A stretch of 64,000 bases of DNA from Eledone cirrhosa. Its lineage: Eukaryota. The stretch is taken from positions 313,472,001 through 313,536,000 of the forward strand of contig OZ024743.1 in assembly GCA_964016885.1 (NCBI GenBank), given 5' to 3'. The position numbers and the translations under genes were made by a program. The notes beneath the pieces are model-generated. The model was not told where the DNA came from. It made no database searches and saw only the letters and a program-made list of their open reading frames with translations. Positions within the stretch are counted from its first letter, which is position 1. Every line of letters starts with the position of its first letter. This document shows, piece after piece, positions 12,038 to 53,315 of this stretch.

Positions 12038-13940
12038 ATGTTAAACGAAGCTAACGAAAATAGTGGTGGGGGGACAGCAAGAGTTGTAAGCTCGCACGCT
12101 TTAGTCCCCCCTTCCTTCCCAACTAATGTCATAGAGAAGGAAAGAAAAAATAAAATAAAAACAGACGAATGTGCCGAGAAAAATGACGGAAACACAAATC
12201 TGGACATTGATTCCAACAACAAAAAAAAATTTGAAAAATTGCATGACAATATTAATAGCACAAACAAAGACACAACAAACACAAAAATAACATTTGAAAA
12301 CAACATCATAACAGAAAGCAAAGCAGACGACAAAGTCAACACCAATAATATTTCATTTGCACAAACAACAAAGAAATCTTTGACATATATACCTGAAAAT
12401 ATTTCAGATGTGGCACAAATAATTATAAACGCCAAACAATACATAACTCAAGGGGAAAATGGTATTTTATCGGTAAAAAAGCCTCAAGAACTCACCAAAG
12501 ACATTGAAAGTGGACGGTCGTTTTCCGCACCATCAACAACATTTCTAAAAAACCTCAACAGCCAACACAAACAGAAATCAAAGCAGTACTTACAGAAGTA
12601 CTTAATGAAACCTATTTCATAAGAAGAGACAGACTGTATGGAAGCCTAGCGATTATTGTGAAGAACGAATCGGCGGCAAAAAATGTCCTTTGTCGCCGAT
12701 TCGTTCGACAAATTTTACCTTTTATTCATCTTATATGGGTAAAAGAACTCAGCGCATATGGCGGGATGCAATGATGCCAGATGTGGACTACTGCTGGCTC
12801 ATAGCTGGCTTCATCGATCCAGCGAATGACAACGTGATTTCCATTGGGAAAACCACAGGCAATGCGTTCAGTGGAACAGGTATAGAACTTGTAGTGCAAA
12901 TGAAGCCTGAACGCATCGCCCAAATACCCGACAGAATCCTATTAGAAGGCCACGGGTATATAAACATTAGCGTGGAGGGGAGAAGGCCGTCCTGTCATAT
13001 CTGTGCAGGTAGAGGGCACCTGAAGGCGGCTTGTCCCCAACTCAACAAAAAGAAAACCCTGCTACCAACACCAGCTCCACCACCACCACCACAACAGATA
13101 AACAAACAACAAAACTCAGTCCCACCCAAACCGTCCCTCAGTAAAACTACACCACCACTACAACACAAACAGTCACAACACATTACCCAAAAACAAAACA
13201 CAGTCCCACCCAACCCCTCACTCAATAAAACAACACAACCACCGCAGCCACAACACACAACACAGTCTAACATAGTGACATCCATCTCCCTCACAAAGAA
13301 AGCCAACACGGAAACATTACCAGCAAACATACCTCTTCCCTCCAACACTGAAGATAACCCAACGAATTCGGAGGAAGAAATGGAGTCCTTCAGACAGATT
13401 AAAAGGAAAAAAAGAAAACATGTGCAAAACACACAAGGCCAAACAACCCCTACCCAAATGTCAACACAATCCAACAAAACACAAAACACCCCTCCAGCAA
13501 CAAACAAAACCAAACCTGCCCCTCCCCTCTTCGAAACACTCACACCATCCGAAAAAAAGACATTACACTATACTTACATCAACAGAAACAATAATAAATT
13601 AAATGAATTCATAAACAATAACCCTTCGGTACAAACCGAAGGTGTAAACTTTGTTTCTTCAGAAAACTACCCACATTTAAAATTAATAAAGATCCCAATG
13701 AACCTCTACCAAAAACCAAAAAAGGATTTTAAGGAGAACGTAGGACCACCCGCTGTCAAACCCATAAACCGCGTCCTACTAAAAAGCTTTCCCCCTCCCC
13801 TTCCCCTCACCAACACAACTCCAAACACCCCAACCTCACCACACACTGACGACCCCACACCACCACAAGACACCCCTTCACCCAACACCCCGGACCCCAT
13901 GGAAGTCGTGCGACCCGAACCCCGGGAAGCAGAAAGGTAG
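12038..13940 (+). pseudogene. Tx1-A ORF1 (gag-like, CCHC zinc knuckle, P/T/Q-rich linker), disrupted near 12620-12690
   Basis: SFAQ motif, IPDRILLEG, CHICAGRGHLKAAC (CX2CX4HX4C) and basic KRKKRK. Confidence 0.85.
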
Positions 13941-13979
13941 GTCTCTACACTCTCCTTTGGCTTTGCCGCCCACATCGAT

Positions 13980-16900
13980 GTGTTAAGAGTAGGATGTTTG
14001 AATGCACGTGGCCTGGGCTCAACTTGGAAGCAAGCAAAGCTTCTAAATGACCTCAGGTCACGTGGTATAAATGTAATGGTTATCTGTGAGACTCGAATCA
14101 GCGTCGTGCGGCAGCTGGCCCCTACCTTCGATGACTTTGAGGTGCATGCATCTCTCTGTTAACCTGGAGGGGGAGGGGGGTTGTCGTACTGCTGGAAAAA
14201 CACCTGGGTCTCGCCGTACAGGTTGTTCACTCGGACCCGGAGGGTCGTTTGTTGGTGCTAGACGTTGGCAGTAGTGAAGGTGTGGCCTTGAGACTGGTCG
14301 CCGTCTACTCCCCTTTAGGAGCTGAACGGCCCGACTTCTTCCAGCGTTTGGAGACTTTTCTGGGAACGTCGCGTTCCCTGCTTCTAGCGGGGGATTGGAA
14401 TGACATCCTAGATGCACGTTGGGACTATGCAGGAGCATGTCCTAATAGATGGGGGTGTAACAGCCTCAAGGGGTTACTCGACCGTTTTAACTTGGTCGAT
14501 AGATATCGACTAGATTTTCCAACTGTGCCAGCCTGGACTTGGACGAACCAAAGTGGTCAATCTAGATCGTACTTAGATAGATCCTTAGTTAGAAGTAAGG
14601 ATAGGGACATATTAAGCTGTCCAGAAATGCTCACGGTTGGCTATACGGATCACAAATTAGTGACCTGCGTAGTCAATCTCGAGAAAACACATAAACAGGG
14701 TCCCGGTTACTGGAAACTTAATTTGTCTTTACCGGCAAAAGAGACTTACAGAAACCGGATTAGCAGATTAGTTGAGGAGAGGTTGACGGGTGCAATCGTC
14801 AACAACCGATGGTGGGCATCTCTCAAAAGAGAGATTAGAACAGAATCAATAAGTTATAGCAAGATGTTAGCTGCCGATAGGAATAGAAACAAGAAAGAAT
14901 TAACAGGTAAATTAGAAGAGGCAATCAAGAGCGAAGATGTGGCCAGAGTGCTGGCATCGAGGACGGCCTTGAACCAGTTTTTCGATGCAAAGCACGAAGG
15001 CTGCGTCATTCGAAGTAAAATACGTGCTCTAGGTAATGAGGGGGCCAAAGCCGTTGGCTGGGCCCGCGTGACAGAAGCTAAGAGTGGAAATCGATCCACC
15101 ATCCGGTCTTTGCAAGACGAGGATGGACAGGTGATCCGGGAGCCTAAGCAGATGTGCGAGGCCTTTCAAAGGCACTTTGCCCGATTATTCGGGGGAGGCG
15201 AGGGTCCGGGCAGGGACGTGGATTTCGGTCCATACCTCGACGGCCTGCCGCGTCTCTCGAGCGAAGAGGCAGAGTCCTGCGAGGGACCAATCTCGGCTGA
15301 TGAGATCGGAGATGCGCTGAGCCAATGCAGCAAACGCAAATCTCCAGGTCTCGATGGTATACCTTACGAACTTTATTTAGCAATGCCGGTCTTTTTCTCC
15401 GAACTCCTCGAAGGGGTCTACTGCAACTGGCAGCAGAACGGGAGAATTCCTTGTTCTGTAGCCAAGGGCGTAGTCTCGCTGGTGAGGAAGGACGAGAACA
15501 AGGGGGATAGTATAAATGATTTTCGGCACATAACCCTGCTAAACACAGTTAAAGATTTTGGCCAAGGTGTTAGCAAAGAGGTTGGCGCTTGTCGTGGGTG
15601 GCTTGGTGGGAGACGCGCAGACATGTGCTGTCCCATCCAGGTCAATTCACGATAACATCCATCTCATGCGATACATCATAGAGAGGGTTGGCAACAAACC
15701 CGGCTTCGGTGGGGCCCTGATCGACTTGGATCAGTCTAAGGCCTTCGATAGGGTCGACCATGGTTACCTGGATGCGGTGCTAGCGGCGGCTGGGTTCGGT
15801 CCTGTTTTCAGAGGCTGGATCACTGCCTTACATAGCAACCACATCTGTTCTAGGATCAAGGTGAACGGCTACCTTTCGAAGCCGTTCGAAATCACACGAT
15901 CCATTCGACAAGGGTGCCCTCTCTCATGCCTTCTGTACGTATTGACTCTCGAGCCTTTACTGAGGAAGTTGGAGTTGTTGCAGGGTATCCCCCTGGAACC
16001 AGGATTGAGCAAAGCGGTGTCGGTCTACGCCGATGACGTAACAGTAATGGTATCGACCGACTCGGAGATCGAGGCGATCGGTACCTTACTGGAGGATTAC
16101 GAAAGGTTGTCAGGAGCGAAACTGAACCGGGAAAAATCCATCGGGCTGCAACTCGGAACGTGGAGAGGCAGACCGATGCCTCCCGACGGTGTCGTCGGAT
16201 ACTGGACGGAGGGCCCGGTGAAGTTGCTTGGGGTCTGGTTTGGACCGGACCTCCAGGTGGAAAAGAACTGGGACGAGGTTACGAACAAGGTGTTTGCACT
16301 AACCCAGAAATGGGCCAAGTGTAAGCTGTCCCTAAAAGGTCGGGCGGAGGTGGCGAACATTTACATAGCGTCCGTCACTTACTACCGCCTGACTGTCGTG
16401 CCTTGCCCTTTCTTTGGAAGAAGCGCCCTCCTATGGTGAGAAGATCCATCTGCTGCCAACAACCATCGAAAGGAGGGCTGAGGATGCCGTGGTTGATGAT
16501 GCGTAGGCACGCATTAAGGCTACGGCACCTACAGGTAGTCCCCACTGGTCAACCGGTGTGGGCTCCGTTCGTGAAACGAGCCTTTCCGAGACTCGTCTCG
16601 CTCACCGAGCTGCAGTCCTAGGTCAAGCAAAGATCCGGAAAACTGGGAGACTGGCACACTGAGTGTGCCCAGGCGCTCAGGGCTCTCTGGCAAGCGGGCC
16701 AGGCCATCGGTGGAGAATCCACCTCATCATTCTATAGAGGGCTGGTGGCTAGCAGGGGCGATGACACCCTTGGAGAATCGCTGGACATGGAAGAGGACGA
16801 ACTGGCCAGCCTGTTCGGTAGGACTTGGGCCCGGGACCAATGGACAACTTCCAGAAGTCACTAGCCTGGCAGTGCTACCGGGGGGCTCTACCCGGTCGAG

Positions 16901-17367
16901 ACAGGCTCTACAGACATGGGCGCCCGGACAGGGATCCCTCGATAAAGATTTGCCCTAGATGCGTGCGTCACGAAGAAACCGTTGCGCACGCATTGGTGCA
17001 ATGTCCGGGCGTGGCTGATCTGTGGGGCTACGCCGAACGACTGCTGTCGCGGGTGGCGCCCATCCGATTGACCGCCGAGTCCGTGGTGACAATCAAGCCG
17101 CCTCCCCTCTTCACAAAGGAAGCAAAGGCGGTTTTTCTGTGCGTAATAGCCATGTTGAAAGAGGTTGTTTGGTGGACACGATTGAAAGGTCTGAGGTCAG
17201 GCAACTTCCTCTCTGGTCATAGTCTGGTCTACTTCTTCCGATATCACTTCGGAAGAAGGATAAGAATGGAGAGAGAGGTGCTTGGCCACAGGCAGTTTTA
17301 TGAAAGGTGGGTGATAGTGGCAAGAATGGCTCGTGTAAATGGGCCTTCTCTGTATACCATCCTGTAG
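13980..17367 (+). pseudogene. Tx1-A ORF2 (APE endonuclease, RT, C-terminal zinc finger); several stops and frameshifts
   Basis: LNARGL, GDWND, SYLDR, TDHK, GPGYWKLN, KSPGLDG, DLDQSKAFDRVDH, RQGCPLS, YADD, CPRC...ETVAHALVQC. Confidence 0.93.
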
Positions 17368-17578
17368 GTAAAGAAGTGAAGGAGAGGGGAGCACCTTCTC
17401 CATGTGCTCCCGGGCAAAGGATTGCACACTTTTTCGGGGGTGTGTGCAACCCCCATCACGTCCCCTCCCTTTTGAGGTTGTTTTCGATTATTTTCATTTT
17501 ATATCCTTTTTACTCGATTTTATGTAAACTCCCCCTTTGTATTTGTCCCTTCTTTTTATGCCTTTATGGTAAATAGAG

Positions 17579-17614
<36 letters not shown>

Positions 17615-21316: not shown

Positions 21317-21318
21317 GC

Positions 21319-21365
<47 letters not shown>

Positions 21366-21640: not shown

Positions 21641-21674
21641 TGAAAATTGCAAACTTGACTGTCACCACATATTA

Positions 21675-28895: not shown

Positions 28896-28897
<2 letters not shown>

Positions 28898-28963
<66 letters not shown>
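28898..28963. repeat. (TAA)n microsatellite, left edge of the Dong/Tx1 nest
   Basis: About 22 perfect TAA units. Confidence 0.95.
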
Positions 28964-28966
<3 letters not shown>

Positions 28967-29701
28967 AGAAGGAATGCTAATGGCTGCGCAGGAGCAGGCC
29001 CTCAAAACGAAGTGGTTGAAGCACCATATCTACAAGGAGGAGGCTAGCCCACTGTGCAGGATCTGTGGAGAGAGAGAGGAGACTGTGGCTCACATTGTGT
29101 CCGAGTGTAAACACCTAGCCCAGACCCACTATAAGGGCTGGAGACACGATGTGATGGGCAGGGTGATCCACTGGCACCTGTGCAAAGTAAACAATTTACC
29201 ACATTCTGAGAAATGGTATGAGCATAGGCCAGAGGCGGTGATGGAGAACAATCAGGTGAAGGTGCTGTGGGATTTTAGGATACAGACGGACAAAAAACTG
29301 GAACACAATAGACCTGACCTGGTGGTTGTGGACAAAGAAAAAAGATCGTGTCTGATTGTGGATGTGGCCTGCCCGTTCGACACGAGAGTGCAAGAGAAGG
29401 AGAGGGAGAAAATTAACCGATACCAGGACCTAAAGTGGGAGGTGAAAAGGATCTGGAACTGCCATGAAGTCAAAGTGATCCCGATTGTCATAGGCGCACT
29501 GGGGACTATCTCCAAAAGTTTCCAGGGATGGTTAAAGAAAATCGGCCCCTTCACGCTTTTTGGAACGCTTCAAAAGGCATGCTTGCTTGGAACAGCAAGA
29601 ACCCTCCGATACGTCCTGAATATCTGAGGCTGTAGGTAGTAGCTTGATATTCAATCCAACGGACTTTCCAGTTAACCAACATCAATGACTGAGATTCAAG
29701 G
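28964..29701 (+). mobile_element. R4/Dong-type RLE non-LTR element D1 (5'-truncated, open endonuclease domain)
   Basis: AAQEQAL, CRICGEREETVAHIVSEC (CCHC), RHD, NRPDLVV...DVACPFD...EKINRY, PIVIGALG; (TAA)n on both sides. Confidence 0.92.
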
Positions 29702-29976
29702 AATAACAACAATAGTAATAATAATAATAATGCTTTCTTTATTAACCACAAGGGTTTACATAAAGTAGACATTAAGGACAGTGCAGGACAATACAGGCCG
29801 GTATAAATGGGCATTTCTGCGTGTAAAAAAACAGAGGATGTAATAAAAAATAACAATGAAAAATTCCCCAATAGGGGGGAGACTTCGGAGGGACATTTGT
29901 GGAGAAACCCCATTAAAAGGCCACAGTGACCCTGACCACCAGGGCAAGTGCCCTCTCCCAGTTTTCCACCTTTAAT

Positions 29977-32900
29977 TTACAGACAGATACTCAGAGTAGT
30001 CCCATTCACACGGGCTATTCTTGCCTTTCTCACCCATCTTTCAACAAAATGATGGGAAGAGAGCACTTCCCTTTCTACCCTGATTTTCCTTTTAAAATGA
30101 AATTTGAAAAAGTTAATCAGGGCATCACCGAAGAGGTAAGTGCTTGTCTTCAGCCCTTTCAAACGTGTCCACCATACTATCTCTTTCGCCATGACCACCA
30201 GACAGATAAAAACTGCTTGCCCTTCCCGGCTAAAGGAGGAGGGCGGGGCAATCCTCACGATGGACACAGCTGATAGCTGGATCCGTCCTACACGAGACAG
30301 CAGGTGTTCGACATAAACACACAAGTCAGCAATGCTCGGACACTGGACCAGTACGTGCAGGACGGTTTCGTCGCCCTGCGCGCACCTCGGACATGCCCGG
30401 CTGACGGCACCTCCATGCCTGTAGAGTTTATCCCGAACTGGCAAAGCTCCTCGGTAGCACTGCCAGGCCAGGGATTTCTGGAAGTTGTCCATAGGCCCCG
30501 GCCCGAAAGTTCTTCCGAAGAGATTGGCTAGTGGATTTTCGTCGACGCCTAGAGTTTTCCCAAGTACGTCGTCGCTCTTCCCTTCCACTAATCCTCTATA
30601 GAACGCCAAGGTGGAGTTTTCACCGATCACATTGCCCGATTGGTCGAGGGCTGTGAGCGCCTGAAGACATTCCAGTCTCCAAGCACACCCTCTCGGTCTT
30701 CGCTTGACCCAGGACTACAGCTCCGTCAAGGAGACGAGCTGGGGAAAGACGCGTCTAGCAAACGGCGACCACACCTGATCACCGTCGAGGAAGAGGAAGA
30801 GATGTCGTAGCCTGAGCGCGTGTCTGCACATCATTCCCAGCCCTACACGTAGCGAGTGTTGACAACAGATGGACCGCCTGACCATCGGAGCGTGTCCCTT
30901 CCACAAAAAGCGAAAGGGCAAACGCTCCAGCGCAGTCAGGCGGGGCTTAGGACAAGGTACCACGGACAGGCGGTAGGAGATGACGGACGCGATATACGCG
31001 TTAGCCACCTCCGCTCGACCTTTCAGGGATAGCTTCCTCTCGTCCCATTTCTGGGTGAGAAAGCCACCCTGCTCGTCACCTCTTCCCAGTTTTTGTCCGT
31101 CTGGAGATCCGGACCGAACCAGACCCCGAGCAATTTAACCGGTACGTCCGTCCAGCGCCCGACGACGCTGTTTGACGGCATGGACCTGCCTCTCCAGGTG
31201 CCGAGCTGCAGGTCCACTGACTTTTCCTGGTTGATCATTGCTCCTGTCACCGCTTCGTATTCTCTTAGTGTAGTGCCGATCGCCTCGATGTGTTTGGCGT
31301 TCGACACCACTACGGTGACATCGTCCGCATATGCTGACACAGATCTTCCGCATCCTAGTTCGCGCGGGACCCCCCCTCAACGTCTCCAGTTTGTGCAGTA
31401 ATGGCTCGAGAGTCAATACGTACAAGAGGGACGAGAGGGGACATCCTTGGCGGACCGAGCGCATGATGTTGAACGGTTCCGAAAGGTGACCGTTCACTCT
31501 CACTACAGAGCAGATGTCGCTGTGCATGGCAGCGATCCAGCCTCTGAAGACGGGCCCAAAGCCAGCCGCCCTCAGGACTTCCGCTAGGTAACGATGGTCG
31601 ACCCTATCGAAAGCTTTCGACTGATCTAAATTGATCAAGGATCCACCCGTGCCAAGTTCCCTAAATACCCTCTCTACGATGTATCGCATGAGGTGGAGGT
31701 TGTCGTGGATGGATCTGTCGGGAATGGCGCATGTCTGCGCCTCTCCCACCAGACCACCAACGACAAGCGCCAACCTCTTTGCTAGCAACATGGCGAAAAT
31801 CTTGAACTCTGTGTTTAGCAGAGTTATGGGCCTAAACTTGTCTATGTTATCCCCCTTGTTCGGATCCTTTCTCAGCAGCGCCACAGCTCCTCGGCTCACA
31901 GAGCTGGGAATTCTCCTTGTCTGTTGCCAGTTGTAGTAGACGTCCGTTAAGAGGCCTCTGAACAAGTCTGGCATCTGTACGTAAAGTTCATAGGGCAGAC
32001 CATCCAAACCAGGCGCTTTACCCCTTGTGCAGCCAGCCATTGCCTCCCGTACTTCAGCGGCTGTTATCGGCTTTTCGCAACACTCCGCCTCAGTGGCCAA
32101 GAGCCGCGGCAGTCCGTCGAGGTAGACACTAAAGTCCATCCCTCGATCCGGCCCGCCGCTGCCCCCGAAAAGCTGAGCGAAGTGTCGCTGAAAAGCTTCA
32201 CACATTTGCCCGGGATTGAGTAGCATGCGCCCGTCGTGGTCCACCAAAGACCTGATCGTGGCTTTGTTGCCACGACGCGCCTCCGCCACTCGGGCCCATT
32301 GAACGGCTTTCGTCCCCTCGTATCTGAGAGCACGCACCCTAGCTCTGATAACGCAGCCTTCGTGCTTTGCATTGAATAATTGGTCAAGGGCCAATTTCGC
32401 CCCAAGTACGTCGGTCGCGATGCCTTTGCTAAGCGCCTCGTCTAATTTTCTAACTAATTCTCCCTCTGCTCTATTTTTCTCTCTTGCTAAAGCCTTACTA
32501 AACTAATGGACTCTATTTTAATTGCTCTTTTCAGAGCAAACCACCACTTGTTGTTGACGATGGCCCCCGTCAACGCCCGCTTAACTAGTTCGCTAATGTG
32601 GTCTCTGTAGGCCTTGCGCGCTGGTAAGGACGCGTTTAGCTTCCAGTAGCCGGGTCCTCGTTTATGAAGCCTATCTAAGTCAAGCACACAGATCACGAAT
32701 TTGTGGTCCGTGTAGCTGACTATCTTGAATTGTGGACAGCCTATGCTAGAGCTATCTATTTCCCTACAAAATACTCTATCTAGATATGATCTGGATGACC
32801 CTATGCGATTTCTCCAAGTCCACATTGGCACATTCGGGAAATCCAATCAGTACCTGTCAGACAGTTCAAAACGCCTGAGCAGGTTGGTGAGGCTCTTGAA

Positions 32901-33382
32901 CCCTCCTCCCCTATCCGCTAATCCCACACAGTCCAGGCGTGCATCTAAGATCCCGTTCCAGTCGCCCACTAACACTAAAGATCGGGACGTTCCAAGAAAG
33001 GTCTCCAGACGCCGGAAGAAATCAGGCCGCCCTGCTCCTGTCGGAGCATAGACGGCCACTAGCCTGGAAGCTAGCCCGTCTCCGCTGATCACGTCTAGCA
33101 GCACCAACTTACCTTCTGGGTCCAGGAAAATGGCCCGTATGGCGAGATCCAAACCTCTCCGAAAAAGCACAGCAACCTATCCCTCCGATCCCGGACGGCT
33201 GGGAGATGCGTACACATCGTAGCCGCCGAAGATCGGTGCGAAGGCCTGTGCTTCGGAGATTCTGGTTCTCTGATGGCCACTACATCTATGTTTAGTGACC
33301 TGAGGTCGTTGAGCAGGTGGCCCTGCTTCCATGACAACCCCAAGCCACGCGCATTTATGCTGCCTATTCTGAGTGAGATCAT
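29977..33382 (-). pseudogene. Tx1-B ORF2 (APE, RT, zinc finger), frameshifted
   Basis: SINARGL, GDWNG, SYLDR, TDHK, GPGYWKLN, KAPGLDG, FRPITLLN, LDQSKAFDRVDH, RQGCPLS, YADD, CPRC...ETVLHVLVQC. Confidence 0.92.
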
Positions 33383-33416
33383 GTTGAAAAGGAGTGGAAA
33401 AGATGGGAAAGACCAC

Positions 33417-34750
33417 TTACCTTACTTCTCGTAGGGGAAGGACGGTTTTTCCATCCTTTTTACTGCTTGTGGCCTCCTCAGGAAGGATGTCCTTATAAAT
33501 CCTCCTGGAGAGTGCTTGTCGGAAGTCTCCGATGTCTTTGGGGAATTTTTGTTTTAGTGTCATGTACGTTTTCTGTGTGATGCGAGTGATTTGTATGCGT
33601 GGAGGTGGTGTGAATTTTTGGGTTGTTGTGTAGTCTTTTTCTGTGAAGCTGGTGTTGTGTTGCATGTAGTGTAATAATTGGTTGTTGTTCAAATTTAATG
33701 CTGTGTAGTGTGTATCGTTTTGGTTGTTTTGTTTTGTTTGCGTTTGTTGTGGGTTTGTTTCTGTTACGCTTTTTGGTTACTTTTGGGTGTAGGTGATGGT
33801 GGTGTTGGGGTTAATGAATGTGATGGTGTTGGTGTTTGGGTTGATGGGGTTGGTGATGCTGGTGTGGATGGTGGCATATCTGTCCTAACTTTTTTGTTTG
33901 TTAATTTATTTGCTTCCCTCTGTATTTTGTTTTTGGAGGGGGAAGGAAGAGAATTTTTTCTTTTTTGGTTTCTTTTTTTTTCTGATACCGTTTCCCACTC
34001 CTCGTCATCTGTCTCCAGTTGTGATAGGCCGGGGAGTGGAAAATCCTCCACAGGCGTTAGTTTTGGTTGTGGCTTCGTGGATGGTGTAGGCGCTGGTGCT
34101 AGTTCTGAAGCGTTGGGTGGTGGTGGTGTTGGTTTTGCTGGTGGTGGTGGTGTTGGTTTTGCTACTGTTGCTAGGGTTGTTGCTGTTATAGTTGCTTCTG
34201 TTGTTGCTGCTACAGTTGTTGCTGCCATCTCTGCTACTGGTGGTGTTGATGGTTGTGTCACTGGGGCTGACCCTGTACCCATCTTTCTCTACCATTCTTT
34301 TGGCTTCTTATAATTCCTCCTGAGTTACATGGATCGCTTCGCATGTTTTTGCTACTCTGGCAAAACTCAGGGTAGTTTTCTTAATTTCATTGTTGCTGTT
34401 GATGTTATCGTTATTTTTGTTATTGTCAATTTTAGTTTCCGTTGTGGTGGTGGTGGCTTCAGTGGTGTTCGGTGTGGAAGAGTTCATTTTGGTTGAATTC
34501 ATTTCGATATAATGAGTTAATTTATTTTTTCTTTTGTTTCTGTTGTCGCTGTGGTGGTGGTGGTGCGGGTGGCGGCTTTAACACCTGCAGTCATTGGTAA
34601 TGGCGGGAAATGAATGTCTGGCTGAAACAAATTTAAAATATTGCTACTGCTTATATTTTTAGTGTTGGCAAACGTAGTAATATTTACAATGGTGGTGTCG
34701 GTGTGAGGTGTTAGTTTGTGAGGAAGGCTCTCAGCTACTGAGTCGGCCAT
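33417..34750 (-). pseudogene. Tx1-B ORF1, degenerate; central CCHC-containing part apparently missing
   Basis: T/N-rich N-terminus, LSFARVAK, P/T-rich linker, EEWETVSEKKR and a C-terminus similar to Tx1-A ORF1. Confidence 0.65.
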
Positions 34751-34989
34751 GATTTTTCAAAGAAAATCTTTTTTTGTTTGATAATTATAAAAAGTTTAAA
34801 TTTGGGGCTTAAGACCCCAATCTTTTTGAGTGTCCTTTTCAGAAATCAATGTATGTGCACTTATATACAGTTAACAATAAACATTTTCCATAAATGGCAA
34901 TTTTAAACAACTGAAAATAACAAACCTTTGCGGAGCTCACGAAGATACGATTTACTACGTAGGTCGCCAATAATAATAATAATAATAAT

Positions 34990-36096
34990 GAACAAAAAGA
35001 AATGGATAGGAAGACTAGGAAGCTATTGACTATCTACAACATGTTCCACAAGAGGAGTGATGTCGATAGACTCTACTTAAGGAGATCTGAAGGTGGAAGA
35101 GGTCTTATTAGGATAGAGGACTGTTTTCAGATGGAGAAAAAGAACCTACTCAAATACGTGACCGATAGTAAGGAGCCAATGCTCAGAATTGTACTGAAGG
35201 AGAGGACAATAGACCAGGGGATGTCCAAGGAGGAAATAACAACAAGGAGAAAGAGCAACCTTCATGAAAAATCCCTTCATAGTACCTTCTTTGAGGAAAC
35301 GGAATTCAGAGATCCACAGACATGGAACTGGTTGAGAAGAGGAGATTTTAAAAAGGCTACATAAGGAATGCTAATAGCTGCGCAAGAGCAGGCCCTCAAA
35401 ACGAAGTGGCTGAAACACCATATTTACAAGTAGGAGGCTAGCCCTCTGTGTAGCATATGTGGAGAGAGAGAGAGGAGACTGTGACTCACATTGTATCCGA
35501 GTGTAAACACCTAGCCCAGACTCACTATAAAGGGTGGAGACACGATGTGATGGGCAGGGTGATCCACTGGTACCTATGCAAAGTAAACAATTGACCACAT
35601 TCTGAGAAGTGGTATGAGCATAAGCCAGAATCGGTGATAGAAAACGATCAGGTGAAGGTGCTGTGGGATTTTAGGATACAGACGGACAAGAAACTGGAAC
35701 ACAATAGACCTGACCTGGTGGTTTTGGACAAGGAAAAAACTTCGTGCCTCATTGTGGATGTAGCCTGCCCATTCGACACGAGAGTGCAAGAGAAGGAGAG
35801 GGAGAAAATTAACCGATACCAGGACTTAAAGTGGGAGGTAAAAAGGATATGGAACTGCCATGAAGTCAAAGTGGTCCCGATTGTCATAGGCGCAATAGTT
35901 ACTATCTCAAAAAGCTTCCAGGGATGGTTAAAGAAAATTGGCCCGCCCCGCATTTTGGAACACTTCAAAAGGCATGCTTGCTAAGAACAGCAAGAACCCT
36001 CCGATACGTCCTGAATATCTGAGACTGCAGGTAGTGGCTTGATATTCATTTCAACAAACTTTCCACTTAACTAACATCAATGACTGAGACTCAAAG
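34990..36096 (+). mobile_element. Dong-type element D2 (5'-truncated, stops)
   Basis: DRLYLRRSEGGRGL, RLE domain and the same 3' UTR as D1; (TAA)n on both sides. Confidence 0.92.
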
Positions 36097-36114
36097 AACA
36101 ATAATAATAATAAT

Positions 36115-38514
36115 CTCCATCACTACAGTACTACTATCCCATCACCACCGTCACCACTGCATCATCGTTACCACCACTATTCCGTCACTACGTCCTGTTA
36201 AGAGAGGGATGGTATTAGTGCCACGACACATGACTAGAAGCGAGGAAGTCACCAAAAGATATAAAAAGATATAAATAGACTTATTTAGTGACCCGGTCAA
36301 ACAGCTAACAACATAATAATTATTGTTGTTGTATCTCTAAACTCTCTCAAAATGTTTAGTTTAAACGATGTCAACTAATAATAATAATGATAAGCAACAA
36401 GTCGAAACATTACAGAACAGAACACAGACAAAAACAAACGCAACAACAAAAGAAAAACAAACTAAAAAAGTTTTGAACTTAACAACCCCTACTTCCCTCG
36501 TAGCTAAATTCAAAAACAGCAGCAACAGCAACTACAACACTAGTAACTGATGTTACTGGCCTTGAATAACAAAAAGAAAAAAAATGAAGTCAGACATTCA
36601 AACATTTCAATGAAACTTGAGTCCTTATTGAATGGGACATTCCAAAACATAGACACTAAAAACAGATTGGAAATAAAGTACAAAACTAGGGGGAAAAAGC
36701 TAAATATTATCATAGAGGAAGTGAAGCAACGCATTGTCGCAAAAAGTGCAAAGCTTAGGCGGTATGAGAAGAGGGTCTGTCAGTATAGACAGAACCGCAT
36801 GTTTGACAACAACCAGAAGATGCTGTTTGGACAGCTTGAAGGGAAAGAAAGAGGCAACGACGTGATCCCAGAGGCGGAACAAACTAAGACATTCTGGAGA
36901 GAAATATGGTAGCAGGATGTTGAACATAATAGTTAGGCGGTGTGGATTGAGACAGTACAAAAGGAGGTTAGTGAACAAGCACACCAACAACCTGATTTGC
37001 GTATCACAGTTGAAACTCTTAAAGGGGAGGCCAAAACACTAACCAACTGGAAATCAGCAGGCCCAGATGGTGTGCAGGGGTATTGGATTAAACATATAAC
37101 ATCCCTCCACCCGAAACTGACAACCATGTTCAATGACTTCTTGATGTCGGCTGAGGTACTAGAGTGGTTGACAAATGGTACCACAGTTCTGGTAATGAAA
37201 GACCGAATCAAGAGTAATGATGTTACCAACTACAGACCTATCACATGTGTGTCCGTAATGTGGAAACTGTTAACAAGCATTGTGTCTGAGGAAATCTACC
37301 ATCACCTCCACATAAACAACTTGTTATCAGACGAACAGAAAGGATGCCGAAAGAAGTCCCATGGTAAAAAGGACCAGTTACTTATTGATAACATAGTAAT
37401 GAGGGATTGCAAGAGGAGACACACTGGTCTTGCCATTGGATGGATAGACTACAAAAAGGCAGTCGACATGGTACCTCATTCTTGGATAACCAAAAGCCTA
37501 GAGATGTTCAAGGTGGCAGATAACATCAGACAGTTGTTGAGCAAAAGTATGAAGTCCTGGAAAACAGAGTTAACATCGGGTGGAGAATTCTTGGAATGCG
37601 TTAAGATCAAGAGAGATATCTTCCAGAGAGATAGTTTGTCCCCTCTGCTATTTGTCTTTGCCCTGATACCACTGACTGTTATATTGCGAAAAGTGAGAGC
37701 AGGATACAAGTTGGGAAAAGAAGAGCTTACCATCAACCACCTCCTCTTTATGGGCGATCTTAAACTCTTTGGGAAGAGTGAGAAGGAGTTCGATGTACTT
37801 GTTGACACTGTCCGTATTTTCAGCAATGATATATGTATGCAATTTGGTATTAATAAGTGTGGAGTCCTAGTGATGAAGAGGGAAAATTGAGCAGAAGCAA
37901 CGGAATTCAGGAACCAACAGGTGAGATGATAAAGGAAATTGACACTGATGAAGAATACAAATATTTAGGGGTACTGGAGCCGGATGACATCAAGAACAAA
38001 AAAAAAACGAAGGAATTGATAAGATCTGAGTACATTAGGAGAGTAAGGAGCGTATTAAAATCGCATCTAAATAGTAGGAATGTCATAAGTGCAGTGAATT
38101 CCCGAGCTGTGTCTATTATTAGGTACAGTGCGGGAATTCGGAAATGGAATGTTGCTGAACAAAAAGAAATGGATAGGAAGACTATGAAGCTATTGACTAT
38201 CTACAACATGTTCCACAAAAGGAGTTATGTCGATAGACTCTACTTAAAGAGATCTGAAGGTGGAAGAGGTCTTATCACCATAGAGGACTGTGTTCAGATG
38301 GAGAAAAACAACCTGCACAAATACGTGACTGACAGTAGGGAGCCAATGCTTAAAATTGTACTGAAGGAGAAGACAATAGACTAGGTGATATCCAAGGAGG
38401 AAATAACAACAAGGAGGAAGAGCAACCTTCATGGAAAATCCCCTCATAGTACCTTCTTTGAGAAAACTGAATTTAGAGATCCACAGACATGGAACTGGTT
38501 AAAAAGAGGAGACC
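36115..38514 (+). mobile_element. Dong-type element D3: 5' UTR piece fused to the RT region (internal deletion at ~36612-36618), 3'-truncated
   Basis: 36115-36618 is homologous to the D4 5' UTR (43005-43320, reverse); then WKSAGPDG, NYRPITC, EQKGC, WIDYKKA, DSLSPLLF, NHLLFMGDLKL. Confidence 0.88.
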
Positions 38515-38538
38515 ATAAAATATGTATATTAAGGAATA

Positions 38539-39533
38539 GCGCTTGGAAACTGGAATGTCTCCAGGCCCTCAATGCCCTGTGCCAGCAGGGCATCAGTATC
38601 GGTGGAACATCCACCTCGGCATTCTATAGAGGACTAGTGGCGGGGAAGAGCGACGACGTTCTCGGAGAGATGCTGGTCGTCGAAGAAGATGAGCTCTTTG
38701 CTCTCTTCCGGAGAACTTTCAGCCCAGGGCCTATGGATAACTTACAAAAATCCTTGACCTGGCAGTGCTACCGGGGAACGTTGCCGGTTCGAGATAAGCT
38801 CTATAGGCACGGAAGTGCCGTCAGCCGAGCCTGTCCGAGATGCGCGCAGAGCGACGAAACCGTCGTGCACGCACTCGTTCCGTGCCCGAGCATTGCTGAC
38901 TTGTGGAGCTATGTCGAACAGTTGTTGTCGCGTGTAGGACTGATCCGTTTATCGACTGAGTCCATTGTGATGATGGTCTCGCCGTCTTCCTTCGAGGAGG
39001 AAGGGCAGGCAGTTTTCATCTGCCTGGTGGCCATGGCGAAAGAGATTGTGTTGTAGACAAGGTTGAAAGGTTTAAAGACATACTTTCCTCTTCGGCGAAT
39101 CCCTAATTAACTTTTTCAAGTTTCACTAGAAAAGGGAAATCAGGGTGGAGGGGTAAGTTTGTTGAAAGGTGGGTGAATGTAGCGAGAATGGTCCGAGTGA
39201 ACGGGACCGCTCTGAATATACGCCTGTAATTTGAGAAATGGAAAAATTGAGAGAGGGCACTTGCCCTGGTGGTCAGGGTGGCCATGGTCTTTTGTGTGGT
39301 TTTCCGCACGAGTGTCCCTCGGAGGTTTCCCCCCTGTTGGGGAATTTATCATTGTTTCAATTTTCATTTTTATTGTTTATATATATATATATATGTTTCT
39401 ATGTATTTTTTTCTTTTCTTATATAAATAATAAAAATCTTTACACGCACAAACCCCACATCGTACCGCCCTGTACCGTCCTGTGCCGTCTGTAATGTTTT
39501 TCTTGATGTCAGCCCTTGTGGCCAATAAAGAAA
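38539..39533 (+). mobile_element. 3' part of a Tx1-B-like LINE (Tx1-C)
   Basis: WQCYRGTLPVRDKL...CPRC...ETVVHAL; 3' UTR ends cccttgtggccaataaagaaa followed by (ATT)n. Confidence 0.9.
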
Positions 39534-39565
39534 TTATTATTATTATTATTATTATTATTATTGTT

Positions 39566-42500
39566 CTTTGAGTCTCAGTTATTGATGTTATTTAACTGGA
39601 AAGTTTGTTGAAATGAATATCAAGCCACTACCTGCAGCCTCAGATATTCAGGACGTATTGGAGGGTTCTTGCTGTTTCCAGCAAGCATGCCTTTTGAAGT
39701 GTTCCAAAAAGCGGGGCGGGACCAATTTTCTTTAACCATCCTTGGAAACTTTGAGATAGTACCTAGTGCGCCTATGACAATCGGGACCACTTTGACTTCA
39801 TGGCAGTTCCAAATCCTTTTTACCCCCCACTTTAAGTCCTGGTATCGGTTAATTTTCTCCCTCTCCTTCTCTTGCACTCTCGTGTCGAATGGGCAGGCTA
39901 CATCCACAATGGGGCACGATTTTTTTCCTTGTCCAAAACGACCAGGTCAGGTCTAATGTGTTCCAGTTTCTTGTCCGTCTGTATCCTAAAATCGCACAGC
40001 ACCTTCACCTGATCATTTTCCATCACCGACTCTGGCTTATGCTCATACCACTTCTCAGAATGTGGTCAATTGTTTACTTTGCATAGGTGCCAGTGGACCA
40101 CCCTGCCCATCACATCATGTCTCCACCCTTTATAGTGAGTCTGGGCTAGGTGTTTACACTCGGATACAATGTGAGCCACAGTCTCCTCTCTCTCTCTCCA
40201 CAGATCCTGCACAGTGGGCTAGCCTCCTGCTTGTAAATATGGTGTTTCAGCCACATCGTTTTGAGGGCCTGCTCTTGCGCAGCCATTAGCATTCCTTCTG
40301 TAGCCTTTTAAGGTCTCCTCTTTCAACCAGTTAAATGTCTGTGGATTTCTAAATTCAGTTTTCTCAAAAAGGTACTAAAAGGGATTTTTCATGAAGGTTG
40401 CTCTTCCTCCTTGTTATTTCCTCCTTGGACATCCCCTCGTCTATTGTCCTCTCCTTCAGTACAATTCTAAGCATTGGCTCCCTACTATCAGTCACGTATT
40501 TGTGTAGGTTGTTTTTCTCCATCTGAAGACAATCCTCTATGCTGATAAGACCACTTCCACCTTCAGATCTCCTTAAGTCGAGTCTACCGACATCACTCCT
40601 CTTGTGGAACATGTTGTAGATAGTCAATAGCTTCCTAGTCTTCCTATCCATTTCATTTTGTTCAGCAACATTCCATCTCAGAATTCCCGCACTGTACCTA
40701 ATAATAGACACAGCTGGGGAATTTACTGCATTTATGGCATACCTACTGTTCAGATGTGACTTTAATACGCTCCTTACTCTCCGAATGTATTCAGATCTTA
40801 TCAATTCCTTCATTTTTTTGTTCTTGATATCATCAGCCTCCAGAACATCCAACTACTTCTCACTCTTCCCGAAGAGCTTAAGATCGTCCATGAAGTGGAG
40901 GTGATTGATAGTAAGCTCTCCCTTTCCCAACCTGTATCCTGCTCTCACTTTTGGCAGTATAATGGTCAGGGGGATCAGGGCGAGGACAAACAACAGAGGG
41001 GACAATCTATCTCCCTAGAAGATACCTCTCTTGATCTTCACGCCTCCCAATGATTCTCCGCCCGATGTTAATTCTGTTTTCCAGTACTTCATACTTTTGC
41101 TCAACAACTGTCTGATGTTATCTGCCACACTGAAGATCTCTAGGCTTTTGGTGATCCAAGAATGAGGCACCATGTCAAATGCTTTTTTTAGTCTGGCAAG
41201 ACCAGTGTGTCTCCTCTTGCAATTCCTCAATACCATCTTATCAGTAAGTAACTGGTCCTTTGTACCACGGAACTTCTTTCGGCATCCTTTCTGTTCGTCC
41301 GGTAACAAGTTGTTTATGTGGAGGTGATGGTAGATTTCCTCAGACACAATGCTTGTTAACAGTTTCCACATTACGGACAGACATGTGATAGGTCTATAGT
41401 TGGTAACATCAATACCCTTGATTCGGTCTTTCATTATCAGAACTGTGGTACCATTTGTCAACCACTCTGGTTCCTCACCTGACATCAAGCAGTCATTGAA
41501 CATGGTTGTCAGTTTCGGGTGGAGGGATGTTATAATTTTAATCCAATACCCCTGCACACCATCTGGGCCTGGTGACTTCCAGTTGGTTAGTTTTCTGGCC
41601 TCCCCCTTAAGAGTTTCAACTGTGATACTCAAATCAGTTTGTTGGTGTGCCTGTTCACTAATCTCCTTTTGTACTGTCTCAATCCACACTGCCTGATCAT
41701 TATGTTTAACATCCTGCTCCCATATTCCTCTCCAGAATGTCTTAGTTTGTTCCGCCTCAGGGATCAAGTCGTTACCTCTTTTCTTCCCTCAAGCTGTCCA
41801 AGCAACATCTTCTGGTTATTGTCAAACATGCGGTTCTGTCTATACTGACTGGCTCTGCTCTCGTATCGCCTAATCTTTGCTACAATGCGTTGCTTCACTT
41901 CCTCTATGATAATATTTAGCGTTTTCCTCCTAGTTTTGTACTTTATTTCCAGTTTATTTTTAGTGTCTATGTTTTTTAGTGTCCCATTCAGTAGGGGCTC
42001 AAACTTTCCAATGTCATTTCTCATTTCCCTGATTTGACCATTCAGTCGTTTCTTCCACCAAGGTTCTGATCTTTCTTGTTTGATTTTTCCTCTCACTTTT
42101 ATGCCAAGTAATTTCCTCACCGCATTTGCTGTTGCTTTGAGGATATTGTTGCACTGGTGAAGTTTCCTCGCCTCAAGGTATGGGATGACTTTGTTTACCT
42201 TAGCTGTCGTTTCTTTTAACTTTTTCCTGTCTACAAATCTTAGGTTCACAGGTTTCCCACTATCATTGTTCAATTCATCTACCAATAAGTTTAGGATATC
42301 ATTTCCTCAATGGCCGTATCTTTGTTCCAGGTATTATTTATTTCAGCATTCAGATCATTGTCTGCTTCGGATGATTCCTCCGTTCTCTCAACCTCTTCAC
42401 CTTCATCTCCCACTGGCTTGTTTGCCTGGCATACTCCACTCTCCATTTCCAAGCTAATCTTTCTGCTCAGTTCCTCCAGTTCCAGCTCGCTTATCCACCC

Positions 42501-43948
42501 ATTAGTTCTTATTACCCGAGCCTGCCCGGCCAATTTTTGTTCATCTAATTTAAATAGACCAATCTCGTTCCAGATGCTATGCACCTGTTTCCTATAGCCT
42601 TTTTCCTTGGGGTTACTCTTCAGGTAAAATTGCATAACAGTTCTATTCAATTCTTTCGTCCAGTTGGTTCTGGTCCCTTTCCTTCTTCTTCTTCCTCCTC
42701 CAACACCAGCAGTATTAGGATGACAGACAGGTCCCTGCTACTGGGCCAGGGAGCACCTACTGGGTGAGGGTCTGTCACATGACATTCCAGTCTCCACTTC
42801 ACCGTTATTCGAACTGTTTAGGTTCGACATTTAAACACCCATATCGAGGATTGGTGAATGTATGGTTACATAACCACCGGTGATTTCATCACCCCCAGGG
42901 ATTTGATCACCCCCCGGTGATTTTAGCATGCCACTATCACGCTGTAGACGAACATAAATAAATAAACAAATAAATAGGTAAAAACTTTTAAAAAATAGGC
43001 TTATGTTTAAGTTTCATTATAATGTAATGTTTGAATGTCTGACTTAGTTTTTTTGTTTGTTTGTTTCTTTCTTTGTTTTTCTTTTCTTTACGTTTTTCGT
43101 TGCTGGTGTGCTGTTTAAATTTTGATTTTTAATTTTTTGATTTTTTGACCGGTGTAATCACATCAGTCTATTTATATCTTTTGATACCTTCCTCCCTTAG
43201 TGGGAATACTACGATCTCTCTGTCTTAGCAGGTGGTAGTGGGAGAGAATAGCGGCGGTAGCGATAATGAGGCAGTGGTGGTGGTGTTGATGTGATCGTAG
43301 TACTGTAGTGATGGTGTTGAAGTTGAAGTAGAAATAGAAGTTGAAGTAATAGTTGGCTTGGCTAGATTTTTTTGCGTGGTAGTGGTGATGGTGGCGGTGG
43401 TGGTGCAATTATTTGCCTGTCTGTCGACATAGCGATTTTCCTCTTTTTTTACTATAACATTTCTGATCCAAAATTAAATATTAAATATTGGGGCCCTATG
43501 CCATAATGTGATGCGTTGTCGCTGGCTGAGAGTCAAAACTATAATCTTAAGTTTCATTTGTAATAAGAATTATTCTATCACAGTTGTTTTAAGTTGAAGT
43601 AACAGTTGTTTTAAATATGAAGTTGAAGTAACAGTTGGCTTGGCTAGAATTTTTTTGCGTGGTAGTGGTGATTGTGGCGGTGATGGTGTTGGTGGTGAAA
43701 TTATTTGCCTGTCTGTCCACGTAACGATTTTCCTCTTTTTGGACTGTAACATTTCTGATGCGAAATTAAAAATTAAATATTGGAGCCTTATGCCATAATG
43801 TGATGCGTCGTCGCTTGCTGAGAGCCAAAACTGTAATCTTATATTTCATCTGTAATAAGAATTATTCTATCACAGTTGTTTTAAATAATGTAAAAATCAA
43901 AAACTTACGGGAGTGATTCTATAACACTATAATCCACCACGTGCATAT
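39566..43948 (-). mobile_element. Near full-length Dong-type element D4 (ORF 42830-39640, ~1.1 kb 5' UTR)
   Basis: N-terminal RTNWTKELNRTVMQFY...EQKLAGQARVI, PWWKKRL, RT and RLE motifs; internal deletion near 40850; (AAT)n at both ends. Confidence 0.92.
43337..43884. repeat. ~260 bp tandem duplication within the D4 5' UTR
   Basis: 43337-43592 versus 43619-43884 (gaagttgaagta...tggcttggctaga...ataagaattattctatcacagttgttttaa). Confidence 0.85.
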
Positions 43949-44061
43949 ATTATTATTATTATTTGTAACAGCATGCCTTCCACTAAAGATAACTAAGAGA
44001 CAAAATGGTGGTGTTAAATGTAAAGAGTAGAGATAAACACACAAACGCATACACACTTAAA

Positions 44062-44130
44062 ATGTTGGCTGAAAAGTTCATAGGCTGACTATGAAGGAGC
44101 GATGCTAGAGCTGTGAAATCCTGCATGCTT
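44062..44130 (+). mobile_element. Possible Tc1/mariner terminal fragment
   Basis: tggctgaaaagttcataggctgac resembles mariner TIR-proximal sequence (recognised from memory only). Confidence 0.3.
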
Positions 44131-44133
44131 TAA

Positions 44134-44313
44134 TGGGGAATTTTTCATTGTTTCAATTTTCATTTTATTGTTTATATATATATATGTTTTATGTCTTTTT
44201 TTCTTATCTTATATAAATAATAAAAATATTTACACGCACAAAACCCACATCGTACCGTCCTGTTCCGTCTGAGATGTTTTTCTTGATGTCAGCCCTTGTG
44301 GCCAATAAAAAAA
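44134..44313 (+). mobile_element. Tx1-C-like 3' UTR fragment
   Basis: Closely matches 39338-39533; followed by (ATT)n 44315-44380. Confidence 0.88.
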
Positions 44314-44341
44314 TCATTATTATTATTATTATTATTATTAC

Positions 44342-44372
<31 letters not shown>

Positions 44373-44381
44373 GTTATTACT

Positions 44382-46306
44382 CTTTGAGTCTCAGTCATTG
44401 ATGTTAGTTAACTGGAAAGTTTGTTGAGATGAATATCAAGCCACTACCTGCAGCCTCAGATATTCAGGACGTATCGGAGGGTTCTTGCTGGTGATTGATG
44501 GTAAGCCCTCCCTTTCCCAACCTGTATCCTGCTCTCACTTTTCGCAGTACACTGGTCAGGGGCATCAGGGCAAGGACAAACAACAGAGGGGACAGACTAT
44601 CTCCCTGGAAGATACCTCTCTTGATCTTCACACTTCCCAAGGATTCTCCAGTTGATGTTAACTCTGTTTCCCAGGACTTCATACTTTTGCCCAACAACTG
44701 CCTCATGTTACCTGCCACCTTGAAGATCTCTAGGCTTTTGGTGATCCAAGAATGAGGCACCATGTCCAATGCCTTTTTGTAGTCTATCCATCCGATGGCA
44801 AGACCAGTGTGTCTCCTCTTGCAATTACTCATTACCATCTTATCAATAAGTAACTGGTCCTTTGTAGCACGTGACTTCTTTCGGCATCCTTTCTGTTCGT
44901 CCGGTAACAAGTTGTTTGTGTGGAGGTGATGGTAAATTTCCTCAGACATAATGCTTGTCAACAGTTTCCACATTACGGACAGACATGTGATAGGTCTATA
45001 GTTGGTAACATCATTACCCTTGATTCGGTCTTTCATTATCAGAACTGTGGTACCATTTGTCAACCACTCTGGTACCTCACCTGACATCAAGCAGTCATTG
45101 AACATGGTTGTCAGTTTCGGGTGGAGGGATGTTATGTTTTTAATCCAATACCCCTGCACACCATCTGGGCCAGGTGATTTCCAGTTGGTTAGTTTTTTGG
45201 CCTGCCTCTGAAGAGTTTCAACTGTGATACTCAAATCAGTTTGTTGGCGTGCCTGTTCACTGATCTCCTTCTGTACTGTCTCAATCCACACTGCCTGGTC
45301 ATTATGTTTAACATCCTGCTCCCATATTCCTCTCCAGAATGTTTTAGTTTGTTCCGCCTAAGGGATCAAGTCGTTGCCTCTTTCCTTCCCTTTAAGCTGT
45401 CCAAACAGCATCTTCTGGTTGTTGTCGAACATGCGGTTCTGTCTATACTGGCTGACTCTGTTCTCGTATCGCCTGATTTATGCACTTTTTGCTACAATGC
45501 GTTGCTTCAGTTCCTCTATGATAATATTTAGTTTTTCCTCCTAGTGTTGTACTTTATTTCCAGTCTATTTTTAGTGTCTATGTTTTTTAGTGTCCCATTC
45601 AGTAGGGACTCAAGCTTTCCAATGTCATTTCTCATTTCCCTGATTTGACCACTCAGTCGTTTCTTCCACCAAGGCTCTGCTCTTTTTTGTCTGTTGTTTC
45701 CTCTCGCTTTTATACCAAGTAGTTTCCTCACCGTATTTGCTGTTGCTTTGAGTGCTTTGAGGATATTGTTGCCCTGGTGAAGGCTCCTCGCCTCAAGGTA
45801 TGGGATGACTTTGTTTACCTTAGCTGTTGTTTCTTTTAACTTTTTCCTGTCTACAAATCTTAGGTTCATAGGTCTCCCACTATCATTGTTCCATTCATCT
45901 ACCACTAAGTTTAGGATATCTACCAAATCTTGTCCTAGCCCGTCAGCATTCATCTCCTCAGTGGCCGTATCTCTGTTCCAGGTATTATTTATCTCAGCAT
46001 TCAGATCATTGTCTGCTTCGGGTGGTTCCTCCGTTCTCTCGACCGCTTCACCTTCATTTCCCACTGGCTCGTTTGCCTGGCATACTCCACCCTCCATCTC
46101 CAAGCTAATCTCTCTGCCCAGTTCCTCCAGTTCCAGCTCGCTTATCCACCCATTAGTTCTTATTAGCCGAGCCTGCCCGGCCAGTTTTTGTTCATCTAAT
46201 TTAAATGGACCAATCTCGTTCCAGATGCTATGCACCCTTTTCCTATAGCCTTTCTCCTTGGGGTTACTCTTCAGGTAACATTGCATAACAGTTCTATTCA
46301 ATTCTT
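44382..46306 (-). mobile_element. Dong-type element D5 (5'-truncated; large internal deletion at 44490/44491)
   Basis: ORFs 45528-46301 and 44464-45291 (GIFQGDSLSPLLF) jump straight from INH to the last codons and 3' UTR. Confidence 0.9.
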
Positions 46307-46309
46307 GTT

Positions 46310-53312: not shown

Positions 53313-53315
53313 TAT

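What the first reader, a model, noticed from the sequence alone, without database searches (positions are those of the whole stretch)
28898..46306. Self-feeding Dong/Tx1 nest built on one microsatellite read in opposite directions
Seen order: (TAA)n-D1(+)-(TAA)n-Tx1B(-)-(TAA)n-D2(+)-(TAA)n-D3(+)/Tx1C(+)-(ATT)n-D4(-)-(ATT)n...Tx1 tail(+)-(ATT)n-D5(-). Dong 3' ends always run into (AAT)n and these Tx1 3' ends into (ATT)n, producing tail-to-tail junctions three times (~29715, ~39550, ~44345). Known: Dong (R4 clade) targets TAA repeats. Inference: an RLE element and an APE element share the same target with opposite polarity, and each insertion regenerates a target for both. This would build convergently transcribed arrays that could yield antisense RNA or piRNAs.
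Basis: partly seen in the sequence, partly recalled or inferred. Interest (0 to 1): 0.74.

Follow-up and report, generated by a model that had tools for sequence, protein, structure and literature searches.

The report
Two jumping genes share one microsatellite
Two unrelated kinds of jumping gene in this animal genome sit in the same short ATT/AAT repeat and almost always face opposite ways, so they pile up into stacks like this 17-kb one, likely because each cuts its own strand of the repeat and usually leaves repeat behind for the next arrival.

Summary
Confirmed, and genome-wide. The stretch holds five Dong-type (RLE) and three Tx1-type (APE) pieces of different ages, joined by (AAT/ATT)n. 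In G000, 1,570 of 1,687 full-length Tx1B starts follow ATTATTATT in exact phase. Tx1-Dong tail-to-tail joints number 1,126 (about 1 by chance), against 9 Tx1-Tx1 and 1 Dong-Dong. So orientation is not random and the joints are not one duplication. More families use the repeat: a second Dong, further Tx1 families and a SINE. Sister Tx1 copies end in (AT)n or (ATCT)n. Limits: a shared target suffices, since Dong ends face Tx1 tails no more often than long arrays do generally (10 of 31 vs 10 of 47). 'Each insertion regenerates a target' holds for full-length Tx1 (33 of 33) but only 22 of 58 truncated rows. This nest is two opposite-polarity stacks fused at D3/Tx1C without repeat. The piRNA idea is untested. 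Opposite-strand sharing of one repeat is known (TRAS1/SART1); an ATT-targeting Tx1 paired with an RLE element was not found in print. This scan already reported the same system at many other loci of this genome.

The parts
28897..28965 (+). (ATA)23 array, left end of the nest (AAT polarity)
28964..29703 (+). D1: 5'-truncated Dong-1 (CCHC + RLE + 3' UTR), youngest copy, 99.5% to nearest fetched copy
29702..29731 (+). AAT linker, tail-to-tail joint 1 (begins with Dong's imperfect AAC/AAT tail)
29732..34968 (-). Tx1B: both ends present, ORF1 (about 600 bases shorter than other copies) and ORF2 (APE-RT-zf-RVT) with stops and frameshifts
34969..34989 (+). (AAT)7 linker, Tx1B head to D2 head
34989..36099 (+). 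D2: 5'-truncated Dong-1
36100..36114 (+). (AAT)5 linker
36115..38520 (+). D3: Dong-1 with a piece of 5' UTR, internal deletion, RT region; 3' end missing; not D1's subfamily
38521..38531 (.). 11-base filler at the repeat-free D3/Tx1C joint where the repeat polarity flips
38532..39533 (+). Tx1C: 5'-truncated Tx1 of a second subfamily (77% to Tx1B)
39533..39562 (+). (ATT)10 linker, tail-to-tail joint 2
39563..43947 (-). D4: near full-length Dong-1 with 5' UTR (292-bp tandem duplication) and broken ORF
43948..43963 (+). (ATT)5 at the D4 5' end
44131..44313 (+). Tx1C-type 3' tail
44316..44379 (+). (ATT)21 linker, tail-to-tail joint 3
44381..46306 (-). D5: Dong-1, 110-base 3' end joined at 44490 to the RT part; no repeat at 5' end
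11808..17580 (+). Tx1A, outside the nest: sister Tx1 copy with (TA)n at both ends; internal control for target switching

Best explanation
This is a stack of independent retrotransposon insertions in (ATT/AAT)n: Dong-type RLE elements read along the AAT strand and Tx1-type APE elements along the ATT strand, likely because each endonuclease makes its first nick on the opposite strand of the same repeat. Shown: domain content, fixed polarity, exact Tx1 5' phase, different ages, genome-wide recurrence. Inferred from established target-primed reverse transcription: each RNA ends in a few repeat-like units that would pair with the nicked strand and prime cDNA. An insertion usually splits an array and leaves repeat on both sides, so later copies of any family using the repeat land beside earlier ones. 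Tail-to-tail and head-to-head Dong/Tx1 joints follow from geometry; no partnership is needed. A SINE with a Tx1-like tail and Tx1 polarity is probably moved by Tx1. This particular nest is two stacks of opposite polarity, probably fused by a later deletion or inversion at D3/Tx1C.
For: Intact Tx1B ORF2 (L260, 1152 aa) has Exo_endo_phos, RVT_1 and zf-RVT; intact Dong ORF (L261, 1141 aa) has RVT_1, CCHC and an RLE stretch aligning to R2. 1,570 of 1,687 Tx1B starts follow ATTATTATT. AAT follows 30 of 30 and 31 of 31 Dong ends; at least two ATT units follow 29 of 30 Tx1C tails. Joints: 1,126 Tx1-Dong, 9 Tx1-Tx1, 1 Dong-Dong. In 1.19 Mb of blindly chosen DNA, 67 element-array contacts obey the polarity and 5 do not; 54 of 87 arrays touch an element. 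The tag variant seen on (ATCT)n-ending sisters makes up 25 of the first 100 listed Tx1 tails but 1 of the first 100 Dong joints. Either partner can be the younger (15 Dong, 4 Tx1, 10 ties, 2 unscored of 31).
Against: No cleavage or insertion assay and no empty sites: nick positions, tail pairing and net repeat gain are inferred. Upstream repeat is missing at 36 of 58 truncated Tx1 rows and 26 of 103 truncated Dong rows, and at three places in this nest. Dong ends face other Dong copies more often than arrays of 4 or more units do (9 of 31 vs 5 of 87, p=0.0016; not significant against longer arrays), so local clustering may add to the shared target. The age test is crude and its pool is rich in young Dong copies.
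Confidence: 0.85

Rival explanations
1. Mutual feeding in the strong sense: each element prefers the tail made by the other, and the convergent arrays act as sources of antisense RNA or piRNA.
For: 10 of 31 unselected Dong ends face a Tx1 tail vs 13 of 87 arrays of 4 or more units (p=0.06); LINE-flanked arrays tend to be longer (median 10 vs 5-7 units, p=0.08).
Against: The excess vanishes against arrays of 6 or more (10 of 47, p=0.30) or 8 or more units (10 of 31, p=1.0); Dong faces Dong about as often as it faces Tx1.
Confidence: 0.15
2. The repeats are only element-made tails: Tx1 and Dong carry or write (ATT)n or (AAT)n themselves, and only Dong is a true targeter that lands in Tx1 tails.
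For: Both elements end in imperfect repeat-like units; many truncated Tx1 lack upstream repeat.
Against: Repeat also precedes 93% of full-length Tx1B starts in exact phase, a second Tx1 start (8 of 8 local copies) and 22 truncated Tx1 at unrelated breakpoints. What lies beyond that repeat varies freely.
Confidence: 0.06
3. The nest comes from segmental or inverted duplication, a circularly permuted Dong, or misassembly.
For: D1+Tx1B and D4+Tx1C form a 1.8-kb inverted repeat; D3 stops 3-5 bases before the point where D1 starts.
Against: The inverted arms are only 80% alike; Dong copies are 88-94% alike and have different truncation points. D3 is about 91% alike to copies that match D1 at 98-99%. 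The same joints recur over a thousand times.
Confidence: 0.03

Closest known systems
Dong (Bombyx mori), DongAg, DongBg, Darwinula Dong1/2; R4/Dong clade
   Same: Single ORF with RT and restriction-like endonuclease; (TAA)n target, described as usual in insects, molluscs and cnidarians (PMC7998251, PMC3812793, passages read).
   Different: Here two Dong families (39% amino-acid identity) share the repeat with APE elements and a SINE on the other strand; not mentioned in the passages read.
Kibi (TC)n, Koshi (TTC)n and crocodilian (TTCC)n/(TTTC)n Tx1 families
   Same: Tx1-type APE elements that insert in a microsatellite (PMC4494074, passages read).
   Different: Target is (ATT)n, with sister copies on (AT)n and (ATCT)n; no ATT-targeting Tx1 in the passages read or in searches.
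TRAS1Bm and SART1Bm in (TTAGG/CCTAA)n
   Same: Two non-LTR elements insert into one tandem repeat in opposite directions, set by endonuclease specificity (PMC7265360, passages read).
   Different: Those are telomeric and structurally similar APE elements; here the two have unrelated endonucleases and the target is dispersed at roughly one array per 14 kb.
R1 and R2 in 28S rDNA (recalled, not from a call)
   Same: An APE and an RLE element share one host repeat.
   Different: Two distinct unique sites in one orientation, not one microsatellite entered from both strands; no self-stacking linker.

Membership tests
R4/Dong clade | Single ORF: RT, then CCHC and PD-(D/E)xK restriction-like endonuclease; no APE | tested here: met
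   L261 ORF of 1141 aa: RVT_1, weak zf-RVT, RLE stretch aligns with R2 9nl3; no Exo_endo_phos
R4/Dong clade | Insertion into (TAA)n, read on the TAA strand | tested here: met
   3' ends 30 of 30 and 31 of 31; 5' ends 23 of 30 by eye
R4/Dong clade | N-terminal SANT/Myb-like domain | tested here: inconclusive
   No Pfam hit at E<=0.05; the paper needed HHpred, not run here
R4/Dong clade | RT phylogeny with named Dong/R4 references | not tested
   No named Dong among 120 listed homologues; no reference sequence held
Tx1 clade | ORF1 plus ORF2 with N-terminal APE, RT and C-terminal zinc knuckle | tested here: met
   L260 ORF1 504 aa and ORF2 1152 aa; best solved relative L1 ORF2p
Tx1 clade | Closer to Tx1 than to L1 proper | tested here: inconclusive
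   Only named homologue is 'Transposon TX1 149 kDa protein' (32%, 301 bits) vs human L1 179 bits; no tree built
Tx1 clade | Sequence-specific insertion with fixed junction phase | tested here: met
   1,570 of 1,687
TRAS/SART-like antiparallel pair | Two elements in one repeat in opposite directions | tested here: met
TRAS/SART-like antiparallel pair | Telomeric repeat target, both partners APE-type | tested here: not met
   Dispersed trinucleotide target; one partner is RLE. Works like the pair, is not a member.
TRAS/SART-like antiparallel pair | Strand-specific nicking shown biochemically | not testable with these tools
   needs an endonuclease assay
Dual-strand piRNA cluster | 24-31 nt RNAs from both strands with 1U / ping-pong signature | not testable with these tools
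   no RNA run available for this stretch

The most novel reading that the evidence does not exclude
Cross-family twin priming: because the two enzymes prime from opposite strands of one repeat, a Dong particle and a Tx1 particle can use the two ends of a single break and insert together, giving (ATT)n-Dong(-)|Tx1(+)-(ATT)n with both partners 5'-truncated and joined almost blunt without repeat. Five such joints were seen (L048, L056, L059, L094, L285; gaps -1 to +5 bases), with the same signature as within-family 5' inversions (three Tx1, three Dong). Loss of the upstream repeat by an ordinary later truncated Tx1 insertion explains them as well.
Probability: 0.1. Interest if true: 0.75.

Novelty: new variant of a known kind. 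Interest (0 to 1): 0.42.

Why it matters
It shows two unrelated endonucleases converged on one three-letter repeat from opposite strands. It gives a simple rule for how thousands of ordered LINE stacks and a majority of (ATT)n arrays (54 of 87 sampled) come to be flanked by retroelements in this 3-Gb genome. Close Tx1 sisters on (ATT)n, (AT)n and (ATCT)n, about 62% identical over the endonuclease region for Tx1A vs Tx1B, make target-specificity change in APE endonucleases directly testable. No host function is shown.

Tried and rejected
D1 and D3 as halves of one permuted copy: rejected by subfamily. D3/Tx1C as a mobile chimera: no second copy among 40 scored places. Mutual preference of Dong and Tx1: not seen. 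Rfam on four loci gave no ribozyme at the Dong or Tx1 5' ends, only simple-repeat miRNA noise and one weak tRNA match (E 0.07); ARAGORN found no tRNA in four SINE-bearing loci, so the SINE's tRNA origin is unconfirmed. The piece left of D5's head (46307-46755) looks RT-like by eye but matched nothing. The unselected Dong sample stopped at 31 ends, so the neighbour test has low power. The original Dong paper (PMC309301) and Kojima and Fujiwara 2004 were not seen; supplements of PMC4494074, which may list more Tx1 targets, could not be read. Repbase was not available and may hold ATT-targeting Tx1 entries.
Full report
1. Observation. The sequence, tandem-repeat scan, self-alignment and Pfam scan give: (ATA)23 - D1(+) - AAT - Tx1B(-) - AAT - D2(+) - AAT - D3(+) | Tx1C(+) - ATT - D4(-) - ATT - spacer - Tx1 tail(+) - ATT - D5(-). 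D4 is near full length (to 43947). Three places lack repeat: the D3/Tx1C joint (11 filler bases), the start of the short Tx1 tail, and the head of D5. The repeat reads AAT on + left of 38520 and ATT on + right of it, so the nest is two stacks of opposite polarity. No other of 40 scored places holds both halves of that joint.

2. Not a duplication. Dong copies in the window are 88-94% alike with different truncation points; Tx1B and Tx1C are 77% alike. Nearest fetched copies elsewhere: D1 99.5%, D5 97.0%, Tx1 tail 96.2%, D4 95.2%, Tx1B 95.0%, D2 94.5%, Tx1C 92.7%, D3 92.3% (only fetched loci compared). D3 ends 3-5 bases before D1's start point but belongs to another subfamily.

3. What the elements are. 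An intact Tx1B relative (L260) has ORF1 (504 aa) and ORF2 (1152 aa; Exo_endo_phos, RVT_1, zf-RVT), nearest solved relative L1 ORF2p, only named homologue a 'Transposon TX1' protein. An intact Dong (L261) has one 1141-aa ORF with RT, CCHC and an RLE stretch aligning to R2. Clade names rest on architecture and target, not on a tree. The host is an animal, possibly a cephalopod; that guess rests on repeat content and was not tested.

4. Genome-wide polarity (G000, 3.0 Gb). Best-hit samples: 30 of 30 Dong 3' ends run into AAT; 29 of 30 Tx1C tails into at least two ATT units; 30 of 30 Tx1B starts follow (ATT)n; 23 of 30 Dong starts have AAT repeat at or within about 15 bases, by eye. Whole counts of exact tags: Tx1B start 1,687, of which 1,570 follow ATTATTATT; Dong 3' tag 11,199; Tx1 tail tag 22,934 (includes sisters on another repeat). 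Tx1-Dong tail-to-tail with a 24-54 base gap: 1,126, about 1.3 expected at random; that gap range caught 19 of 31 local joints. Controls: Tx1-Tx1 9 sites, Dong-Dong 1 site at 12-42 bases. In 119 of 120 requested 10-kb stretches at round coordinates (80 on the four largest contigs, and tag densities run 1.6-2 times the genome mean), 87 arrays of 4 or more units were scored: 54 touch an element, 67 contacts obey the polarity, 5 do not.

5. More members. A second Dong family (39% amino-acid identity) also reads on AAT; another Tx1 start also follows ATT. A roughly 200-base SINE-like element lies on the ATT strand and its last 20 bases resemble the Tx1 tail; mobilisation by Tx1 is inferred. Tx1A in this window is flanked by (TA)n, and 3 of 4 local copies of one tail variant run into (ATCT)n. 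That variant is 25 of the first 100 listed Tx1 tails but 1 of the first 100 Dong joints, as expected if adjacency follows the target.

6. How far 'self-feeding' goes. Of the first 33 Dong tags listed on C1, 31 could be scored: Tx1 tail across the array 10, Dong 9, SINE 3, other 9. Background for Tx1 tails is 13 of 87, 10 of 47 and 10 of 31 for arrays of at least 4, 6 and 8 units (p 0.06, 0.30, 1.0); for Dong 5 of 87, 5 of 47, 4 of 31 (p 0.0016, 0.07, 0.21). A shared target is enough. Upstream repeat survives at 33 of 33 full-length Tx1, 22 of 58 truncated Tx1 rows, 77 of 103 truncated Dong rows and 7 of 9 full Dong rows, after dropping 41 rows that were alignment continuations (loci are not a random sample, inversion joints give two rows). 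At 31 tail-to-tail joints Dong looks younger in 15, Tx1 in 4, 10 tie, 2 unscored (crude).

7. Mechanism. By established target-primed reverse transcription, an element reading along ATT primes from a nick in the AAT strand and the reverse for Dong. Opposite polarity then forces tail-to-tail and head-to-head joints between families and head-to-tail joints within them, as seen. Nick sites, tail pairing and net repeat gain are inferred. Five repeat-free head-to-head Dong|Tx1 joints and six within-family 5' inversions were seen; the former allow, but do not need, cross-family twin priming.

8. Known work. Dong on (TAA)n: PMC3812793 and PMC7998251 (passages). Tx1 on microsatellites: PMC4494074 (passages; supplements unseen). 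TRAS1 and SART1 in opposite directions in one repeat: PMC7265360 (passages). Octopus papers list Dong-R4 and L1-Tx1 as abundant or recently active but the parts read give no targets: PMC13282606 (first third and passages), PMC8967140 and PMC9115989 (passages). Searches (listings) showed no ATT-targeting Tx1 or Dong/Tx1 pair; subscription journals and Repbase were not covered. Earlier notes of this scan describe the same system elsewhere in this genome (598 notes fit the words, 8 shown); they are not independent support.

9. Verdict. Real, genome-wide and well explained by two sequence-specific retrotransposons entering one repeat from opposite strands. A new variant of known behaviour; the RNA consequence is untested.

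Noticed in passing
window 11808-17580: Tx1A, a 5.8-kb sister Tx1 with (TA)n at both ends; other sisters end in (ATCT)n (L188, L224, L229). Target switching within one Tx1 radiation.
   Followed up: partly
L275 2808-3996, L289 2756-3645, L283 1-1428: Dong-2 copies (39% amino-acid identity to Dong-1) start with a 5' UTR about 85% alike to Dong-1's over 400 bases: possible 5' UTR exchange between families.
   Followed up: partly
L097, L103, L223: Dong copies with 5' inversions of twin-priming shape; one search listed a single paper holding the terms, not read.
   Followed up: partly
L097, L106, L117, L120 near 1480-1500: Short tandem repeats of the first 10 or so bases at full-length Dong 5' junctions, suggesting repeated template jumps.
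   Followed up: no
L187 4692-4870; window 52875-53704: Very abundant SINE-like element (71 exact tail tags in 1.19 Mb) on the ATT strand with a Tx1-like 3' end, often in tandem; tRNA origin not confirmed.
   Followed up: partly
window 10710-11801 and 18764-21833: Penelope-type element (RT + GIY-YIG, open frame of 611 aa) with inverted and nested copies of its end.
   Followed up: no
window 3638-5495, 7648-8742, 50059-51300: Three RT-bearing LINE fragments of another family; the two 3' ends seen run into (TA)n.
   Followed up: no
window 46307-46755: Unidentified RT-like fragment on the minus strand joined directly to the head of D5.
   Followed up: partly
L250-L255, L262 (C1): Tandem full-length 5.9-kb Tx1B copies separated only by (ATT)10-20; L260 and L261 hold open ORFs.
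   Followed up: partly
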